NCBI RefSeq assembly: GCF_003018235.1
Contig: NZ_CP027437.1
Source of the DNA: Escherichia coli
Lineage (GTDB): Bacteria; Pseudomonadota; Gammaproteobacteria; Enterobacterales; Enterobacteriaceae
Reading direction: 5' to 3' (one strand)
Length of the DNA: 64,000 nucleotides
In this document: in pieces, positions 36,534-48,993 of the stretch
Position numbering within the stretch: the stretch's first letter is position 1
Layout: each line of letters starts with the position of its first letter
Program-made: the position numbers and the translations under genes
The notes under the pieces: generated by a model
What the model saw: the letters and a program-made list of their open reading frames with translations, nothing else
Told to the model about the DNA's origin: nothing
Databases searched by the model: none

Positions 36534-36610
36534 GGCTACGTAGCTCAGTTGGTTAGAGCACATCACTCATAATGATGGGGTCACAGGTTCGAATCCCGTC
36601 GTAGCCACCA
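36534..36610 (+). tRNA. metT: tRNA-Met (elongator, anticodon CAU)
   Basis: 77-nt GGCTACGTAGCTCAGTTGGTTAGAGCACATCACTCATAATGATGGGGTCACAGGTTCGAATCCCGTCGTAGCCACCA with encoded CCA. Confidence 0.95.
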
Positions 36611-36620
36611 TCTTTTTTTT

Positions 36621-36705
36621 GCGGGAGTGGCGAAATTGGTAGACGCACCAGATTTAGGTTCTGGCGCCGCAAGGTGTGCGAGTTCAAGTCTCGCCTCCCG
36701 CACCA
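36621..36705 (+). tRNA. leuW: tRNA-Leu (anticodon UAG), class II with long variable arm
   Basis: 85-nt GCGGGAGTGGCGAAATTGGTAGACGCACCAGATTTAGGTTCTGG...CGCACCA. Confidence 0.95.
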
Positions 36706-36728
36706 TTCACCAGAAAGCGTTGTACGGA

Positions 36729-36803
36729 TGGGGTATCGCCAAGCGGTAAGGCACCGGTTTTTGATACCGGCATTCCCTGGTTCGAATCCAGGTACCCCAG
36801 CCA
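36729..36803 (+). tRNA. glnU: tRNA-Gln (anticodon UUG)
   Basis: 75-nt TGGGGTATCGCCAAGCGGTAAGGCACCGGTTTTTGATACCGG...CCAGCCA. Confidence 0.95.
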
Positions 36804-36837
36804 TCTTCTTCGAGTAAGCGGTTCACCGCCCGGTTAT

Positions 36838-36912
36838 TGGGGTATCGCCAAGCGGTAAGGCACCGGTTTTTGATACCGGCATTCCCTGGTTCGAATCCAG
36901 GTACCCCAGCCA
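36838..36912 (+). tRNA. glnW: tRNA-Gln (anticodon UUG), second copy
   Basis: Identical to the glnU sequence. Confidence 0.95.
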
Positions 36913-36927
36913 TCGAAGAAACAATCT

Positions 36928-37004
36928 GGCTACGTAGCTCAGTTGGTTAGAGCACATCACTCATAATGATGGGGTCACAGGTTCGAATCCCGTCGTAGCC
37001 ACCA
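36928..37004 (+). tRNA. metU: tRNA-Met (elongator, anticodon CAU), second copy
   Basis: Identical to the metT sequence. Confidence 0.95.
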
Positions 37005-37052
37005 AATTCTGAATGTGTCGAATATGTTCGGCAAATTCAAAAACCAATTTGT

Positions 37053-37127
37053 TGGGGTATCGCCAAGCGGTAAGGCACCGGATTCTGATTCCGGCATTCC
37101 GAGGTTCGAATCCTCGTACCCCAGCCA
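37053..37127 (+). tRNA. glnV: tRNA-Gln (anticodon CUG)
   Basis: 75-nt TGGGGTATCGCCAAGCGGTAAGGCACCGGATTCTGATTCCGG...CCAGCCA. Confidence 0.95.
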
Positions 37128-37164
37128 ATTTATTCAAGACGCTTACCTTGTAAGTGCACCCAGT

Positions 37165-37239
37165 TGGGGTATCGCCAAGCGGTAAGGCACCGGATTCTGA
37201 TTCCGGCATTCCGAGGTTCGAATCCTCGTACCCCAGCCA
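37165..37239 (+). tRNA. glnX: tRNA-Gln (anticodon CUG), second copy
   Basis: Identical to the glnV sequence. Confidence 0.95.
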
Positions 37240-42787: not shown

Positions 42788-44326
42788 ATGGCTTTTGCCT
42801 CATTAATTGAACGCCAGCGCATTCGCCTGCTGCTGGCGTTATTATTCGGTGCCTGCGGAACGCTGGCCTTCTCTCCTTACGACGTCTGGCCTGCGGCGAT
42901 TATTTCGCTGATGGGGCTTCAGGCGCTGACCTTTAACCGCCGTCCACTCCAGTCTGCCGCTATTGGCTTTTGCTGGGGATTTGGCCTCTTTGGCAGCGGT
43001 ATTAACTGGGTCTATGTCAGCATCGCGACCTTTGGCGGAATGCCTGGCCCGGTTAACATCTTCCTGGTGGTACTGCTGGCGGCGTATTTGTCGCTGTATA
43101 CCGGATTATTTGCTGGCGTGCTGTCGCGTCTGTGGCCGAAAACCACCTGGCTGCGCGTGGCGATTGCCGCCCCTGCTCTCTGGCAAGTGACCGAGTTTCT
43201 GCGCGGTTGGGTGCTGACTGGTTTCCCGTGGTTACAGTTCGGCTATAGCCAGATTGATGGCCCGTTAAAAGGGCTGGCACCGATAATGGGCGTGGAAGCC
43301 ATTAACTTCCTGCTAATGATGGTTAGCGGCCTGCTGGCACTGGCGTTGGTTAAACGCAACTGGCGTCCGATGGTGGTGGCCGTCGTGCTGTTCGCCCTTC
43401 CCTTCCCGCTGCGTTACATCCAGTGGTTTACCCCGCAACCGGAGAAAACCATTCAGGTTTCGATGGTTCAGGGCGATATTCCGCAATCGCTGAAGTGGGA
43501 CGAAAGCCAGCTTCTTAATACGCTGAAAATTTATTACAACGCGACGGCACCGCTGATGGGCAAATCGTCGCTGATTATCTGGCCGGAGTCGGCGATAACC
43601 GATCTGGAAATTAATCAGCAACCGTTCCTCAAAGCACTGGACGGTGAGTTGCGTGATAAAGGTAGCTCGCTGGTAACCGGGATTGTCGACGCGCGTCTCA
43701 ATAAGCAGAACCGCTACGATACCTACAACACCATCATCACGCTGGGTAAAGGTGCACCGTACAGCTACGAATCAGCCGATCGCTATAACAAAAACCATCT
43801 GGTGCCGTTTGGCGAGTTTGTCCCGCTGGAGTCGATTCTGCGTCCGTTAGCGCCGTTCTTTGATCTGCCGATGTCGTCGTTCAGCCGTGGGCCATATATC
43901 CAGCCACCGCTGTCGGTAAACGGTATTGAGCTTACTGCGGCTATTTGCTACGAGATCATTCTTGGCGAGCAAGTGCGTGATAACTTCCGCCCGGATACCG
44001 ATTATCTGCTGACTATCTCCAACGATGCATGGTTTGGTAAGTCTATTGGTCCATGGCAGCACTTCCAGATGGCGCGAATGCGTGCGCTGGAGCTGGCGCG
44101 CCCGCTGCTACGCAGCACCAACAACGGCATTACGGCGGTGATTGGCCCGCAGGGTGAGATTCAGGCGATGATCCCGCAATTCACCCGCGAGGTGTTAACC
44201 ACTAACGTGACACCGACCACCGGACTCACACCGTACGCACGTACCGGCAACTGGCCGCTGTGGGTACTGACGGCACTGTTTGGTTTTGCTGCTGTGCTGA
44301 TGAGCCTGCGTCAACGACGTAAATAA
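42788..44326 (+). CDS. lnt: Lnt, apolipoprotein N-acyltransferase (512 aa)
   Basis: N-terminal membrane segments then nitrilase-fold domain with the catalytic-Cys region (AAICYEI). Confidence 0.95.
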
Positions 44327-44722
44327 TCCCTTCTTATCGTGCCGGAATACATCCCGTATTTCGGCACGCTCACCGGATGCGGCATCAGTGCGTTATCCGG
44401 ATTACAAAATTCCCCTATCCAACTTTGGCACATCTATTGCTTTGTTATACAAGGCAAAGCTTGAACCAGCATCAGTACAACCCGGTTGCACCACAGCAAT
44501 CCACGGGTAGCACCAAAAGAGTGCATTTTAAGAATTTTGCTTCGGAATGGTGCGGCGCATCTCGCAAAAACAAACAATAAAACAGCAATATCTTTACATT
44601 TAGCCAAACTAAATGTTACCTAACAAGCACAACACTGCACAATAAAGTTGCAGATGATAACAACACAAACACTCACAACGGGTATCCATGCGTTCTTAAC
44701 GCAGAAGATAAAGGAGTTGGAT

Positions 44723-45631
44723 ATGCAATTACGTAAACCTGCCACAGCAATCCTGGCCTTGGCGCTTTCCGCAGGACTGGCACAGGCAGATGACGCCGCC
44801 CCGGCAGCGGGCAGTACGCTGGACAAAATCGCCAAAAACGGTGTGATTGTCGTCGGTCACCGTGAATCTTCAGTACCTTTCTCTTATTACGACAATCAGC
44901 AAAAAGTGGTGGGTTACTCGCAGGATTACTCCAACGCCATTGTTGAAGCAGTGAAAAAGAAACTCAACAAACCGGACTTGCAGGTAAAACTGATTCCGAT
45001 CACCTCACAAAACCGTATTCCACTGCTGCAAAACGGCACTTTCGATTTTGAATGTGGTTCTACCACCAACAACGTCGAACGCCAAAAACAGGCGGCTTTC
45101 TCTGACACTATTTTCGTGGTCGGTACGCGCCTTCTGACCAAAAAGGGCGGCGATATCAAAGATTTTGCCGACCTGAAAGGCAAAGCCGTAGTCGTCACTT
45201 CCGGCACTACCTCTGAAGTTTTGCTCAACAAACTGAATGAAGAGCAAAAAATGAATATGCGAATTATCAGCGCCAAAGATCACGGTGACTCTTTCCGTAC
45301 CCTGGAAAGCGGTCGTGCCGTTGCCTTTATGATGGATGATGCTCTGCTGGCTGGTGAACGTGCGAAAGCGAAGAAACCAGACAACTGGGAAATCGTCGGC
45401 AAGCCGCAGTCTCAGGAAGCCTACGGTTGCATGTTGCGTAAAGACGATCCGCAGTTCAAAAAGCTGATGGATGACACCATCGCGCAGGTGCAGACCTCCG
45501 GTGAAGCGGAAAAATGGTTTGATAAATGGTTCAAAAATCCAATTCCGCCGAAAAACCTGAACATGAATTTCGAACTGTCAGACGAAATGAAAGCACTGTT
45601 CAAAGAACCGAATGACAAGGCACTGAACTAA
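44723..45631 (+). CDS. gltI: GltI, glutamate/aspartate periplasmic binding protein (302 aa)
   Basis: ATG at 44723 after AAGGAG; signal peptide MQLRKPATAILALALSAGLAQA. Confidence 0.95.
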   Translation: MQLRKPATAILALALSAGLAQADDAAPAAGSTLDKIAKNGVIVVGHRESSVPFSYYDNQQKVVGYSQDYSNAIVEAVKKKLNKPDLQVKLIPITSQNRIPLLQNGTFDFECGSTTNNVERQKQAAFSDTIFVVGTRLLTKKGGDIKDFADLKGKAVVVTSGTTSEVLLNKLNEEQKMNMRIISAKDHGDSFRTLESGRAVAFMMDDALLAGERAKAKKPDNWEIVGKPQSQEAYGCMLRKDDPQFKKLMDDTIAQVQTSGEAEKWFDKWFKNPIPPKNLNMNFELSDEMKALFKEPNDKALN

Positions 45632-45788
45632 TTACAAGAACCAGGGGCGGAAATTCCAGCCCTCTCGATTGTTACGTAGCACGGACAGACTATACGCCTG
45701 ATGGTCGTTCCCCATCGGGCCTGAAAACCGCAATACGCTGGGTAACAATCTTCGAGGGTAGCAGTTAACGCTGCTACCCTCTTTTTTC
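45632..45788 (+). ncRNA. sroC: SroC sRNA (processed gltI-gltJ spacer, GcvB sponge)
   Basis: Whole gltI-gltJ intergenic spacer, ending in GAGGGTAGCAG-TTAACG-CTGCTACCCTC hairpin plus TTTTTT (45754-45788). Assigned from recalled K-12 location; 5' end approximate. Confidence 0.55.
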
Positions 45789-45800
45789 TGGAGTAGATTT

Positions 45801-46541
45801 ATGTCTATAGACTGGAACTGGGGTATTTTTTTACAACAAGCCCCGTTCGGCAACACCACCTATCTTGGTTGGATCTGGAGTGGTTTTCAGGTGACGATCG
45901 CTTTGTCGATCTGCGCCTGGATTATCGCTTTCCTCGTCGGTTCATTTTTCGGCATTTTACGTACCGTTCCAAACCGTTTTCTCTCCGGTCTGGGTACGTT
46001 GTATGTCGAACTGTTCCGCAACGTGCCGTTGATTGTGCAATTCTTTACCTGGTATCTGGTGATCCCGGAGTTGCTGCCAGAGAAAATCGGCATGTGGTTT
46101 AAGGCCGAGCTGGATCCCAATATTCAGTTTTTCCTTTCATCCATGCTCTGCCTTGGGCTGTTTACCGCCGCCCGTGTTTGCGAACAGGTACGCGCCGCGA
46201 TTCAGTCGCTGCCGCGTGGGCAGAAGAATGCCGCGCTGGCGATGGGTCTGACACTACCGCAGGCTTACCGCTACGTACTGCTGCCTAATGCTTATCGCGT
46301 TATCGTCCCGCCGATGACCTCAGAGATGATGAACCTGGTGAAAAACTCCGCCATCGCCTCGACTATCGGTCTGGTGGATATGGCGGCGCAGGCGGGTAAA
46401 TTGCTCGATTACTCGGCCCACGCCTGGGAGTCGTTTACCGCCATTACGCTGGCGTATGTATTGATTAACGCTTTTATCATGCTGGTGATGACGCTGGTTG
46501 AACGTAAAGTTCGCCTGCCCGGCAACATGGGGGGCAAATAA
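45801..46541 (+). CDS. gltJ: GltJ, glutamate/aspartate ABC permease (246 aa)
   Basis: Polar amino-acid ABC permease; operon context. Confidence 0.95.
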
Positions 46542-47215
46542 TGTACGAGTTTGACTGGAGTTCCATTGTCCCTTCCCTGCCATATCTGCTGGATGGGCTG
46601 GTGATCACCCTGAAAATCACCGTCACGGCAGTGGTGATTGGTATTTTATGGGGCACCATGCTGGCGGTGATGCGCTTATCCAGCTTTGCGCCCGTAGCGT
46701 GGTTTGCCAAAGCCTACGTTAACGTATTCCGCTCGATTCCTTTAGTTATGGTTTTGCTGTGGTTTTACCTGATCGTGCCGGGTTTTCTGCAAAACGTGCT
46801 GGGATTATCGCCAAAAAATGATATCCGTTTAATTTCGGCAATGGTGGCGTTTTCGATGTTTGAAGCGGCCTACTATTCAGAGATTATCCGTGCCGGTATT
46901 CAAAGTATTTCCCGTGGTCAGTCGAGCGCCGCGCTGGCGTTGGGGATGACTCACTGGCAGTCGATGAAACTGATTATTCTGCCGCAGGCGTTCCGCGCGA
47001 TGGTGCCGCTGCTGCTCACTCAGGGCATCGTACTGTTCCAGGATACCTCACTGGTGTATGTGTTATCTCTGGCCGATTTCTTCCGTACCGCTTCAACCAT
47101 TGGTGAGCGTGATGGTACGCAGGTCGAGATGATCCTGTTTGCCGGATTTGTTTATTTCGTTATTAGCCTTAGCGCGTCGTTGTTGGTCAGCTACTTGAAA
47201 AGAAGGACAGCATAA
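46541..47215 (+). CDS. gltK: GltK, glutamate/aspartate ABC permease (224 aa)
   Basis: ABC permease; ATG overlaps the gltJ stop. Confidence 0.95.
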
Positions 47216-47940
47216 TGATTACCCTGAAAAATGTTTCAAAATGGTATGGTCACTTTCAGGTGCTGACCGACTGCTCAACCGAAGTGAAAAAAGGCGAAGT
47301 GGTGGTGGTTTGCGGCCCGTCTGGTTCCGGCAAATCAACGCTGATTAAAACCGTCAACGGCCTCGAACCGGTGCAGCAAGGTGAAATTACCGTCGATGGT
47401 ATCGTGGTTAACGATAAGAAAACCGATCTGGCAAAGCTGCGTTCCCGCGTCGGGATGGTGTTCCAGCATTTCGAGTTGTTCCCCCATTTGTCGATTATCG
47501 AAAACCTGACCCTGGCGCAGGTGAAAGTGCTTAAACGCGATAAAGCGCCCGCTCGTGAAAAAGCATTGAAATTGCTGGAGCGCGTGGGACTTTCCGCACA
47601 TGCCAATAAATTTCCGGCGCAGCTTTCCGGCGGTCAGCAGCAGCGTGTGGCGATCGCTCGCGCATTGTGTATGGATCCTATTGCCATGCTGTTCGACGAA
47701 CCGACATCGGCGCTGGATCCGGAGATGATCAACGAAGTGCTGGACGTGATGGTGGAACTGGCGAACGAAGGAATGACCATGATGGTGGTGACCCACGAAA
47801 TGGGCTTTGCCCGTAAAGTGGCGAATCGGGTGATCTTTATGGATGAGGGTAAAATTGTCGAAGACTCGCCGAAAGATGCGTTCTTCGATGATCCGAAATC
47901 GGACCGCGCAAAAGACTTCCTCGCGAAAATCCTGCATTAA
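47215..47940 (+). CDS. gltL: GltL, glutamate/aspartate ABC ATPase (241 aa)
   Basis: Walker [10 protein letters not shown], signature LSGGQQQR, Walker [11 protein letters not shown]; start overlaps the gltK stop. Confidence 0.95.
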
Positions 47941-48057
47941 TCACTCTGGCGCGCATACCCAAGTGCGCGCCATCTCACGCTTTATCGTTTCGCTCCTCGT
48001 ATCTGTTACATCCTGGCGTTACCCTTGTCGCAAAGAAGCACACAACAAGGAGCAACA

Positions 48058-48993
48058 ATGGCACTGCCAATTCTGTTAGATTGCGACCCAGGTCATGATG
48101 ACGCTATCGCAATAGTTCTCGCCCTCGCCTCACCAGAGCTTGATGTCAAAGCAATTACGTCTTCCGCCGGAAACCAGACACCAGAAAAAACCTTACGCAA
48201 TGTTCTGCGTATGCTGACCTTGCTTAATCGCACCGATATTCCGGTGGCAGGCGGCGCGGTAAAACCGTTAATGCGTGAGTTGATTATCGCGGACAATGTG
48301 CACGGTGAAAGCGGTCTCGACGGCCCGGCATTACCGGAACCGACGTTCGCACCGCAAAACTGTACGGCGGTGGAGCTGATGGCGAAAACGCTGCGTGAAA
48401 GTGAGGAACCTGTCACGATTGTGTCTACCGGACCGCAAACTAACGTTGCCTTGCTGCTCAATAGCCATCCGGAACTGCATAGCAAAATCGCCCGTATCGT
48501 GATTATGGGCGGCGCAATGGGGCTTGGTAACTGGACGCCAGCCGCCGAGTTTAATATTTATGTTGACCCGGAAGCGGCAGAAATTGTTTTCCAGTCAGGG
48601 ATCCCGGTGGTGATGGCCGGTCTGGATGTTACTCATAAAGCGCAAATCCACGTTGAAGACACCGAGCGTTTCCGCGCGATTGGCAACCCTGTTTCAACCA
48701 TTGTTGCCGAACTGCTGGATTTCTTCCTCGAATATCATAAAGACGAAAAATGGGGTTTTGTCGGCGCACCGCTGCATGACCCATGCACCATCGCCTGGCT
48801 GTTGAAACCGGAGTTGTTTACCACTGTTGAGCGCTGGGTTGGCGTGGAAACACAAGGGAAATATACCCAGGGTATGACGGTTGTTGATTATTATTATCTG
48901 ACTGGCAATAAACCGAATGCCACTGTAATGGTCGATGTTGATCGTCAGGGCTTTGTTGATTTACTGGCTGATCGTCTGAAATTTTACGCTTAA
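48058..48993 (+). CDS. rihA: RihA, pyrimidine-specific ribonucleoside hydrolase (311 aa)
   Basis: ATG at 48058 gives [22 protein letters not shown] (nucleoside hydrolase DxDxxxDD motif). Confidence 0.95.

What the first reader, a model, noticed from the sequence alone, without database searches (positions are those of the whole stretch)
45632..45788. gltI-gltJ spacer carries the SroC sponge RNA
The 169-bp spacer ends in a strong intrinsic terminator (11-bp stem plus TTTTTT) immediately before the gltJ start. That fits SroC, released from the gltIJKL mRNA by processing and acting as a sponge for GcvB.
Basis: partly seen in the sequence, partly recalled or inferred. Interest (0 to 1): 0.3.

Follow-up and report, generated by a model that had tools for sequence, protein, structure and literature searches.

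The report
Known SroC small RNA of E. coli
The spacer between the glutamate/aspartate transporter genes gltI and gltJ encodes SroC, a well-studied small RNA that destroys the regulator RNA GcvB; it is base-for-base identical to the E. coli K-12 copy, so the finding is correct but ordinary.

Summary
The observation and the interpretation both hold. The gltI stop codon ends at 45631 and the gltJ ATG is at 45801, so the spacer is 169 bp. It ends in the strongest terminator-like hairpin within the 5 kb scanned: 11 Watson-Crick pairs plus one G-U pair, at -22.5 kcal/mol, followed by TTTTTT. The Rfam sroC model (RF00369) matches 45627-45789 (+) over its full length, at 174.8 bits against a gathering score of 45. 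The sequence is 163/163 identical to the annotated K-12 MG1655 gene sroC (b4763). It occurs as one copy in 5421 of 5426 complete E. coli genomes. Both published GcvB-binding sites are present and exactly complementary to K-12 GcvB: GGACAGAC at 45683-45690 and UCGUUCC at 45705-45711, 14 nt apart. Across 55 further Enterobacteriaceae homologues, the fold shows compensatory changes at 16 of 48 pairs. The loop site was invariant in these 55 (U to C in two Siccibacter set aside), although it was not used to find them. There are three refinements. The mature RNA starts about 5 nt inside gltI. The precursor is mainly the terminated gltI transcript. SroC acts by triggering RNase E decay of GcvB rather than by passive titration. 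Novelty: already known. Interest is low.

The parts
45627..45789 (+). Mature SroC small RNA, 163 nt, as annotated in K-12. Its first 5 nt overlap the end of gltI, including the TAA stop at 45629-45631.
   Evidence: Rfam RF00369 scores 174.8 bits over model positions 1-163. It is 163/163 identical to K-12 sroC b4763. My own covariance model scores 208.7 bits on the + strand and 23.5 on the - strand.
45644..45663 (+). Stem-loop 1 (SroC nt 18-37).
   Evidence: Present in the minimum-free-energy fold. This is helix 1: 91.5% of cells are paired and 2 pairs show compensatory changes.
45667..45750 (+). Long-range stem (SroC nt 41-49 with 116-124, plus inner helices) that encloses stem-loop 2.
   Evidence: Present in the minimum-free-energy fold. 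In one search, helix 2 has 6 of 9 pairs with changes on both sides, and helix 6 (the upper stem of SL2) has 6 of 9.
45683..45690 (+). GcvB-binding site GGACAGAC (SroC nt 57-64). It pairs with GcvB nt 156-163 (GUCUGUCC, the R3/SL4 region). It contains the base equivalent to Salmonella C63.
   Evidence: An exact 8-nt complement to K-12 GcvB. The site was defined by probing and by the compensatory mutations C63G/G160C in PMC4474525. The numbering offset of 3 nt was verified. The enclosing helix 5 is paired in only 64% of cells, which fits an accessible internal bulge.
45705..45711 (+). GcvB-binding site UCGUUCC in the apical loop of SL2 (SroC nt 79-85). It pairs with GcvB nt 13-19 (GGAACGA, SL1). 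It contains the base equivalent to Salmonella C87.
   Evidence: An exact 7-nt complement to K-12 GcvB, with an unpaired probability of at least 0.98 in SroC alone. The block GGTCGTTCCCC is invariant across homologues although it was not in the search pattern; only the two Siccibacter sequences differ, at one base. Compensatory mutations C87G/G14C are reported in PMC4474525.
45754..45787 (+). Leaky Rho-independent terminator: hairpin at 45754-45781 and T6 at 45782-45787. It forms the 3' end of SroC and of the monocistronic gltI mRNA.
   Evidence: -22.5 kcal/mol. Helix 7 is 99% paired across genera. PMC4474525 describes it as a leaky terminator.
44723..45631 (+). gltI, the periplasmic glutamate/aspartate-binding protein (302 aa). 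Its mRNA is the precursor of SroC.
   Evidence: ORF; the true ATG is at 44723, read. RefSeq annotation sits under the match. The protein differs from K-12 GltI at 2 of 302 residues.
45801..46541 (+). gltJ, a permease gene. It is expressed only by read-through of the SroC terminator. Its Shine-Dalgarno GGAG is at 45790-45793.
44660..44679 (+). C/A-rich block ACAACACAAACACTCACAAC in the gltI leader (-63 to -44 from the ATG). It is complementary to the G/U-rich R1 region of GcvB, and it makes gltI itself a GcvB target, which closes the feed-forward loop.
   Evidence: The duplex prediction pairs window 44645-44688 with GcvB 56-95; the energy is overestimated because intramolecular structure is ignored. 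The target status of gltI is stated in PMC4474525.

Best explanation
This is the sroC gene of Escherichia coli. Transcription from the single gltIJKL promoter mostly stops at the leaky intrinsic terminator at 45754-45787, which gives a monocistronic gltI mRNA. A fraction of transcripts reads through into gltJKL. RNase E, with the help of Hfq and in a 5'-end-dependent way, degrades the gltI coding part and leaves the tightly folded 3' fragment of about 163 nt, which is SroC (45627-45789). SroC is very stable. Two short sites lie 14 nt apart: GGACAGAC in an internal bulge and UCGUUCC in the SL2 loop. Through them SroC pairs with two distant regions of the GcvB small RNA, nt 156-163 and nt 13-19. 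This pairing exposes GcvB to RNase E cleavage, while SroC itself survives and can act repeatedly. Loss of GcvB relieves repression of many amino-acid transport and metabolism mRNAs. These include gltI itself, whose leader carries a C/A-rich GcvB target at 44660-44679. What is shown here: the sequence identity, the family membership, the terminator, the fold with covariation, the synteny, and the presence and conservation of both pairing sites. What is taken from published experiments on the identical E. coli sequence or the Salmonella orthologue: processing by RNase E, dependence on Hfq, destabilisation of GcvB, and the additional targets MgrR, fliE and flhBAE.
For: Rfam RF00369 matches at full length, 174.8 bits against a gathering score of 45. 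The window is 231/231 identical to K-12 across the annotated sroC b4763. The sequence is single copy in 5421 of 5426 complete E. coli genomes, always between gltI and gltJ. The terminator and the overall fold are strong, with z = -6.5. There are exact 8-nt and 7-nt complements to GcvB at the published positions, 14 nt apart (PMC4474525). Across 56 sequences (the window plus 55 homologues) from Escherichia, Salmonella, Citrobacter, Klebsiella, Raoultella, Kluyvera, Enterobacter, Kosakonia and other genera, 92.4% of cells are paired, against 38-50% when the partners are slid. Sixteen of 48 pairs show compensatory changes, and 0 of 500 shuffles reach the observed covariation score. The loop site is invariant in that set although it was not used for retrieval. 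Synteny holds across these genera: gltI ends inside SroC nt 1-5 and gltJ starts 10-13 nt after it. The literature adds experimental support. The E. coli homologues of SroC and GcvB are functional in the two-plasmid assay. In E. coli, SroC shortens the GcvB half-life from more than 16 min to 3.8 min and is itself stable for more than 16 min (PMC10250213). GcvB-SroC chimeras make up to about 70% of GcvB RIL-seq hybrids in stationary phase (PMC9299463).
Against: Nothing in the sequence argues against it. Several caveats apply. Short complementarity alone is weak statistical evidence: 6 complementary 7-mer windows were observed against a mean of 1.9 in shuffles, P about 0.04, and two further 7-8-nt complements lie inside stems and are probably chance. 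The gcvB gene of this strain is not in the window, so K-12 gcvB was used as the partner. The 5' end is uncertain by about 3 nt: the K-12 annotation starts at 45627, whereas the Salmonella numbering used in PMC4474525 maps to 45624. Expression and processing in this particular strain were not observed. Conservation of the GGACAGAC site across genera is biased, because most of it was in my search pattern.
Confidence: 0.97

Rival explanations
1. The spacer is only a cis-acting attenuator. On this view it is a leaky terminator whose sole job is to make more GltI binding protein than GltJKL membrane components, and the released fragment has no function in trans.
For: The terminator is real and lies exactly between the binding-protein gene and the permease genes. 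PMC4474525 also assigns it this stoichiometry role.
Against: This is a second function rather than a true alternative. A bare terminator needs about 35 nt, yet 125 nt upstream of it are structured, show covariation, and carry an invariant loop that complements GcvB. Published compensatory mutations show trans action on GcvB.
Confidence: 0.02
2. The spacer is a repetitive extragenic palindrome (a REP/BIME-type element), as found between the binding-protein and permease genes of other ABC transporter operons, where it stabilises the upstream mRNA.
For: The position in the operon and the strong hairpins resemble REP-stabilised operons; this comparison rests on my general knowledge.
Against: The sequence is single copy. 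The median is 1 place per genome across 5421 E. coli genomes, and the covariance model finds only this site in the 64-kb window on the + strand.
Confidence: 0.003
3. The spacer encodes a small protein. One candidate is the 75-aa minus-strand ORF at 45632-45859; another would be an independently transcribed sRNA with its own promoter.
For: The minus-strand ORF appears in the mechanical ORF list.
Against: Homologues differ by indels of 1, 2, 4, 7 and 9 nt, which would break any reading frame. Variation follows base-pairing and not codon structure. No sigma-70-like promoter was found on the + strand anywhere in 43500-48500. Published data show that SroC requires RNase E processing of the gltI transcript.
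Confidence: 0.005

Closest known systems
SroC (Rfam RF00369; E. coli K-12 gene sroC, b4763; Vogel et al. 2003; Miyakoshi, Chao and Vogel 2015, PMC4474525)
   Same: Everything that could be tested is the same. The sequence is identical (163/163). The position between gltI and gltJ, the strand, the terminator, the fold and both GcvB-binding sites all match.
   Different: Nothing differs within the RNA. The surrounding strain differs from K-12 at about 2% of positions in gltI and gltJ, and it lacks the IS5D insertion that K-12 carries 103 nt upstream of gltI.
Salmonella enterica SroC, the orthologue on which the mechanism was worked out
   Same: The architecture is the same, and the two GcvB sites are identical (GGACAGAC and UCGUUCC). 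The positions mutated in Salmonella, C63 and C87, map to window 45686 and 45710.
   Different: The Salmonella subspecies sequences retrieved here have a shorter terminator hairpin, about 7-8 bp against 11-12 bp in Escherichia. Their stems SL1 and SL2 differ by compensatory changes. Their numbering starts 3 nt further upstream.
Other sRNAs processed from mRNA 3' regions by RNase E, such as CpxQ, SdhX, MalH, OppZ and NarS (review PMC9438474)
   Same: They share the biogenesis: RNase E cleavage of a parental mRNA, a shared terminator, Hfq dependence and a 5' monophosphate.
   Different: SroC comes from an operon-internal spacer and not from the last 3' UTR. Its main target is another sRNA, GcvB (and also MgrR), rather than an mRNA.

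Membership tests
SroC (Rfam RF00369) | Scores above the curated gathering threshold of the family covariance model over its full length. | tested here: met
   174.8 bits against a threshold of 45, E = 7.4e-37, model positions 1-163 of 163, window 45627-45789 +.
SroC (Rfam RF00369) | Sequence identity with the reference gene sroC (b4763) of E. coli K-12 MG1655. | tested here: met
   163/163 identical, and 231/231 with the flanks included.
SroC (Rfam RF00369) | Located in the gltI (ybeJ)-gltJ spacer on the coding strand, overlapping the gltI stop codon. | tested here: met
   gltI ends at 45631 and gltJ starts at 45801. RefSeq annotations appear under the match. The same arrangement is seen in the homologous loci of other genera.
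SroC (Rfam RF00369) | The 3' end is formed by a Rho-independent terminator shared with the monocistronic gltI mRNA. | tested here: met
   Hairpin at 45754-45781 followed by T6, -22.5 kcal/mol, unidirectional. This is tested at the sequence level only; termination efficiency was not measured.
SroC (Rfam RF00369) | Two short GcvB-complementary sites, 14 nt apart, that pair with GcvB SL1 (around G14) and R3/SL4 (around G160). | tested here: met
   GGACAGAC at 45683-45690 complements GcvB 156-163. UCGUUCC at 45705-45711 complements GcvB 13-19. The spacing is 14 nt. These match PMC4474525. The partner used was K-12 gcvB, because gcvB is not in the window.
SroC (Rfam RF00369) | Conserved secondary structure: SL1, then SL2 enclosed by a long-range stem, then the terminator. 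| tested here: met
   92.4% of cells are paired, 16 of 48 pairs show compensatory changes, and the slid controls reach 50% or less. RNAalifold independently recovers SL2 and the terminator on a MAFFT alignment.
SroC (Rfam RF00369) | 5'-monophosphate end produced by RNase E processing of gltI mRNA, with Hfq binding. | not testable with these tools
   Supported only by the literature (PMC4474525; PMC10250213). No promoter-like site lies upstream on the + strand, which is consistent with processing.
SroC (Rfam RF00369) | Accumulates as a stable RNA of about 160 nt and lowers GcvB levels in vivo. | not testable with these tools
   Published for E. coli with this same sequence: SroC half-life above 16 min, and GcvB half-life of 3.8 min with SroC against more than 16 min without it (PMC10250213).
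REP/BIME repetitive extragenic palindromes | Many dispersed copies per genome. | tested here: not met
   The median is one place per E. coli genome.
Regulated terminator/antiterminator (riboswitch-like cis element) | A conserved alternative pairing, supported by covariation, that competes with the terminator stem. | tested here: inconclusive
   Nascent-transcript folds pair CUC (nt 38-40) with GAG (nt 128-130) of the terminator's 5' arm. The forced alternative costs 11.9 kcal/mol in the full RNA. Four of the five candidate pairs hardly vary. The fifth is broken in 9 of 56 sequences and shows one compensatory change. No other Rfam family reaches its threshold here.

The most novel reading that the evidence does not exclude
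The strongly conserved nucleotides outside the two GcvB contact sites may have a second role. The clearest examples are CUCUCGAUUG (nt 36-45) and AAUCUUCGAGGGUAGC (nt 121-136). They could form a co-transcriptional switch, or a binding site for a trans-acting factor, that sets how often RNA polymerase stops at the SroC terminator. That would couple the release of SroC, and therefore GcvB levels, to read-through into gltJKL. Miyakoshi et al. raised this possibility. My nascent-transcript folds do show the 5' arm of the terminator transiently paired with upstream CUC, but covariation does not support that pairing.
Probability: 0.08. Interest if true: 0.4.

Novelty: already known. Interest (0 to 1): 0.05.

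Why it matters
As a discovery it does not matter, because SroC has been annotated in K-12 since 2003 and its sponge mechanism was established in 2015. The value here is confirmation. A reader working from raw sequence alone correctly recognised a 3'-derived regulatory RNA inside an operon, a kind of feature that automatic annotation often omits: none of the 25 RefSeq E. coli records listed shows an sroC feature under the match. The comparative data add small points. The loop site that contacts GcvB is nearly invariant across many enterobacterial genera while the stem holding it evolves by compensatory changes. The length of the terminator hairpin differs between genera.

Tried and rejected
(1) Running RNAduplex on the two full-length RNAs gave a meaningless end-to-end duplex of -78.8 kcal/mol, because intramolecular structure is ignored. 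I used exact complementary blocks and accessibility instead. (2) The plain MAFFT alignment (A2) misaligned SL1 and the long-range stem, so RNAalifold recovered only SL2 and the terminator. I replaced it with an alignment fitted to a covariance model (A5). Such an alignment leans towards the model structure, so I cite the slid and shuffled controls with it. (4) My first impression that Siccibacter had lost the 3' half of SroC was wrong. The model spans 232-234 nt there and gltJ follows 11 nt later, so it is an insertion. (5) About 40 of the 97 hits from the genome scan came from unrelated phyla and were chance matches to the 15-base pattern; I removed them by global identity. (6) An alternative anti-terminator pairing was tested and is not supported by covariation. 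(7) The original discovery paper (Vogel et al. 2003) could not be read, because the id I tried is not held. Its content is cited only through later papers. (8) The absence of differences from K-12 across 174 nt, against about 2.1% in the flanking genes, is only weakly significant (Poisson P about 0.025), so I do not lean on it.

Full report
OBSERVATION. The gltI reading frame ends with TAA at 45629-45631, and the gltJ ATG is at 45801-45803. The spacer is therefore 45632-45800, or 169 bp. Its 3' part is a hairpin with a 5' arm at 45754-45765, loop TAAC and a 3' arm at 45770-45781. That gives 11 Watson-Crick pairs plus a closing G-U pair. TTTTTT follows at 45782-45787. The hairpin alone folds at -22.5 kcal/mol, and it has no T run on the opposite strand, so it terminates in the + direction only. 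It is much the strongest of the terminator-like sites in the surrounding 5 kb; the others have 5-9 pairs. Thirteen bases separate the T run from the gltJ start codon, and they contain the Shine-Dalgarno GGAG at 45790-45793. The whole 163-nt segment folds at -66.3 kcal/mol, with z = -6.5 against dinucleotide-preserving shuffles and 0 of 200 shuffles folding as well.

IDENTITY. A scan of the whole window against Rfam found one non-tRNA family. This was sroC (RF00369) at 45627-45789 on the + strand, scoring 174.8 bits against a gathering score of 45, with E = 7e-37 and model positions 1-163 of 163. In the RefSeq record of E. coli K-12 MG1655, the ncRNA gene sroC (b4763) occupies 686681-686843 on the minus strand, between gltJ and gltI, and overlaps gltI by 5 nt. 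The window is 231/231 identical to K-12 over 45600-45830, so the annotated gene maps exactly to 45627-45789. The same 231 bases occur in 5421 of 5426 complete E. coli genomes. The median is one place per genome, 5371 genomes are at least 99% identical, and in the records listed the match lies under gltI and gltJ. None of the 25 records listed showed an sroC feature under the match, which shows how easily this gene is missed. The window therefore comes from an E. coli strain other than K-12. It differs from K-12 at about 2.1% of positions in gltI and gltJ, and it lacks the IS5D element that K-12 carries 103 nt upstream of gltI.

PAIRING WITH GcvB. Miyakoshi, Chao and Vogel (2015, PMC4474525) used structure probing to show that SroC and GcvB contact each other through two stretches of 7-8 nt. 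The stretches are 14 nt apart in SroC but far apart in GcvB. Compensatory mutations, SroC C63G with GcvB G160C and SroC C87G with GcvB G14C, confirmed this. gcvB is not in the window, so I took it from K-12. The window RNA contains GGACAGAC at nt 57-64 (45683-45690), the exact complement of GcvB nt 156-163. It also contains UCGUUCC at nt 79-85 (45705-45711), the exact complement of GcvB nt 13-19. Fourteen nucleotides separate the two sites. The second site lies in the apical loop of SL2, with an unpaired probability of at least 0.98. The Salmonella numbering is offset by 3 nt. With that offset, C63 and C87 fall on the C of GGAC and on the first C of the UUCC run, as expected. Complementarity alone is only weak evidence: 6 complementary 7-mer windows were observed against 1.9 expected, P about 0.04. 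Two further 7-8-nt complements fall inside stems and are probably chance. The weight of the argument rests on the published genetics and on conservation.

COMPARATIVE EVIDENCE. I scanned one genome per bacterial species with the pattern AGCACGGACNNACTATA and obtained 97 stretches. Fifty-seven were true homologues, all from Enterobacteriaceae: Escherichia, Salmonella, Citrobacter, Klebsiella, Raoultella, Kluyvera, Enterobacter, Kosakonia, Phytobacter, Siccibacter and others. The rest were chance matches in unrelated phyla. The block GGTCGTTCCCC, which holds the loop site, was not part of the pattern. It is nevertheless invariant in all but the two Siccibacter sequences, which carry one U-to-C change, while the stem around it varies. 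RNAalifold on a plain alignment recovered the SL2 stem, with 6 of 9 pairs changed on both sides, and it recovered the terminator. I then built a covariance model from five near-identical Escherichia sequences and the minimum-free-energy structure, and used it to align 56 sequences, the window plus 55 homologues. On that alignment 92.4% of cells form standard pairs, against 38-50% when the 3' partners are slid by 1-3 columns. Sixteen of 48 pairs have compensatory changes, and no shuffle of 500 reached the observed covariation score. The small helix that includes part of GGACAGAC is paired in only 64% of cells, which fits an accessible bulge. The model scores 208.7 bits on the + strand of the window and 23.5 on the - strand, which fixes the orientation. 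Synteny holds wherever flanking DNA is available. The last sense codon of gltI ends at SroC nt 2, and gltJ begins 10-13 nt after SroC. A few genera carry 64-129 nt of extra DNA between gltI and SroC. One bias should be noted: conservation of GGACAGAC cannot be judged from this set, because most of it was in the search pattern.

MECHANISM. The steps below that concern RNA processing and regulation come from the literature and were not shown here. The single gltIJKL promoter gives both the operon mRNA and, through this leaky terminator, a monocistronic gltI mRNA. RNase E, with Hfq and in a 5'-monophosphate-dependent manner, trims that transcript to SroC. SroC pairs with GcvB and makes it a substrate for RNase E, and SroC is not degraded with it. 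In Salmonella, the GcvB half-life rises from 1.7 to more than 15 min without SroC. The E. coli pair is functional in the same assay. In E. coli, SroC lowers the GcvB half-life from more than 16 min to 3.8 min whatever its 5' phosphorylation state, and it is itself stable for more than 16 min (PMC10250213). In E. coli RIL-seq data, GcvB-SroC chimeras reach about 70% of GcvB hybrids in stationary phase (PMC9299463). gltI is itself repressed by GcvB, so the fragment feeds forward on its own parent mRNA. The window carries the corresponding C/A-rich block at 44660-44679 in the gltI leader, complementary to GcvB R1. SroC is also reported to sponge MgrR and to repress fliE and flhBAE (PMC9438474). 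'Sponge' is thus right as a label, but the action is catalytic destabilisation rather than titration.

RIVALS. A pure attenuator role for the terminator is real but is not the whole story, since 125 structured and covarying nucleotides with an invariant loop precede it. A REP-type repeat is excluded by the single copy number. A coding role is excluded by frame-breaking indels among homologues. An independent promoter is not supported by the promoter scan or by the published requirement for RNase E. I also tested whether the conserved blocks outside the GcvB contacts could form an anti-terminator. Nascent-transcript folds do pair CUC (nt 38-40) with GAG (nt 128-130). However, forcing the alternative costs 11.9 kcal/mol in the complete RNA. 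The one variable pair is broken in 9 of 56 sequences and has a single compensatory change. That idea remains open but unsupported.

VERDICT. The feature is the already known SroC small RNA, identical to the K-12 reference. Novelty: already known. Interest: low.

Noticed in passing
window 36534-37236 (+): A cluster of seven tRNA genes lies within about 700 bp (Rfam tRNA hits of 57.6-71.1 bits). From memory, its position relative to gltIJKL and lnt matches the metT-leuW-glnUW-metU-glnVX cluster of E. coli.
   Followed up: no
window about 44623-44626 (lnt-gltI intergenic region, 44327-44722): K-12 MG1655 carries IS5D (1195 bp, insH3) 103 nt upstream of the gltI ATG, flanked by a CTAA duplication. 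The window has the empty site, so its lnt-gltI spacer is 396 bp. The insertion sits just upstream of the gltI leader that holds the GcvB target, so K-12 may not be typical for gltI-sroC transcription.
   Followed up: partly
window 44723-46541: Compared with K-12 there are 20 differences in gltI, which change two residues (window D150 and G153 against K-12 N and D), and 15 differences in gltJ. There are none in 45527-45985, a stretch that contains sroC. For the 174 nt from the sroC start to gltJ, the Poisson probability of no differences is about 0.025.
   Followed up: yes
window 44660-44679 (+): The C/A-rich block ACAACACAAACACTCACAAC in the gltI 5' leader is complementary to the G/U-rich R1 region of GcvB. 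This is the other half of the SroC-GcvB-gltI feed-forward loop.
   Followed up: partly
L022 (Citrobacter braakii), L060 and L077 (Phytobacter), L032 (Intestinirhabdus), L035 (Citrobacter koseri): These loci have 64-129 nt of extra DNA between the end of the gltI match and the start of SroC. In other genera gltI ends inside SroC nt 1-5. I did not examine what the inserted DNA is or whether it alters the 5' processing site. In L035 the GltI match is also partial (75% identity, residues 91-264).
   Followed up: no
L019:3498-3729 (-) and L069:11876-12109 (+), Siccibacter: The SroC homologue is 232-234 nt long, owing to an insertion of about 70 nt between SL2 and the terminator. The GcvB loop site also carries U to C (GCCGTTCC). 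gltJ still follows 11 nt downstream. This recalls the non-functional Yersinia variant described in PMC4474525.
   Followed up: partly
alignment A2, columns 155-180 (window 45754-45781): The terminator hairpin is 11-12 bp with a 4-nt loop in Escherichia and similarly long in Kluyvera. It is only about 7-8 bp (GGGTAGC GCT GCTACCC) in Salmonella, Citrobacter, Klebsiella, Raoultella, Enterobacter and Kosakonia. This could mean that the terminator leaks to a different degree in different genera.
   Followed up: no
window 45727-45734 and 45772-45778: Two further exact complements to GcvB exist: SroC nt 101-108 with GcvB 189-196, and SroC nt 146-152 with GcvB 114-120. Both lie inside stable stems, including the two terminators, and are probably chance.
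   Followed up: partly
L042 (Enterobacter sp. EA-1, CP025776.1): SroC is well conserved here (87 bits), but the flanking GltI match is only 56% identical and partial, and the GltJ match is 28% identical and lies 809 nt away. This may reflect frameshifts or assembly errors in that genome, or a disrupted operon.
   Followed up: no
E. coli genome collection: Two of the 5431 matching places are on plasmids, a few genomes hold two copies, and 5 of 5426 complete genomes have no match to the gltI-sroC-gltJ junction.
   Followed up: no
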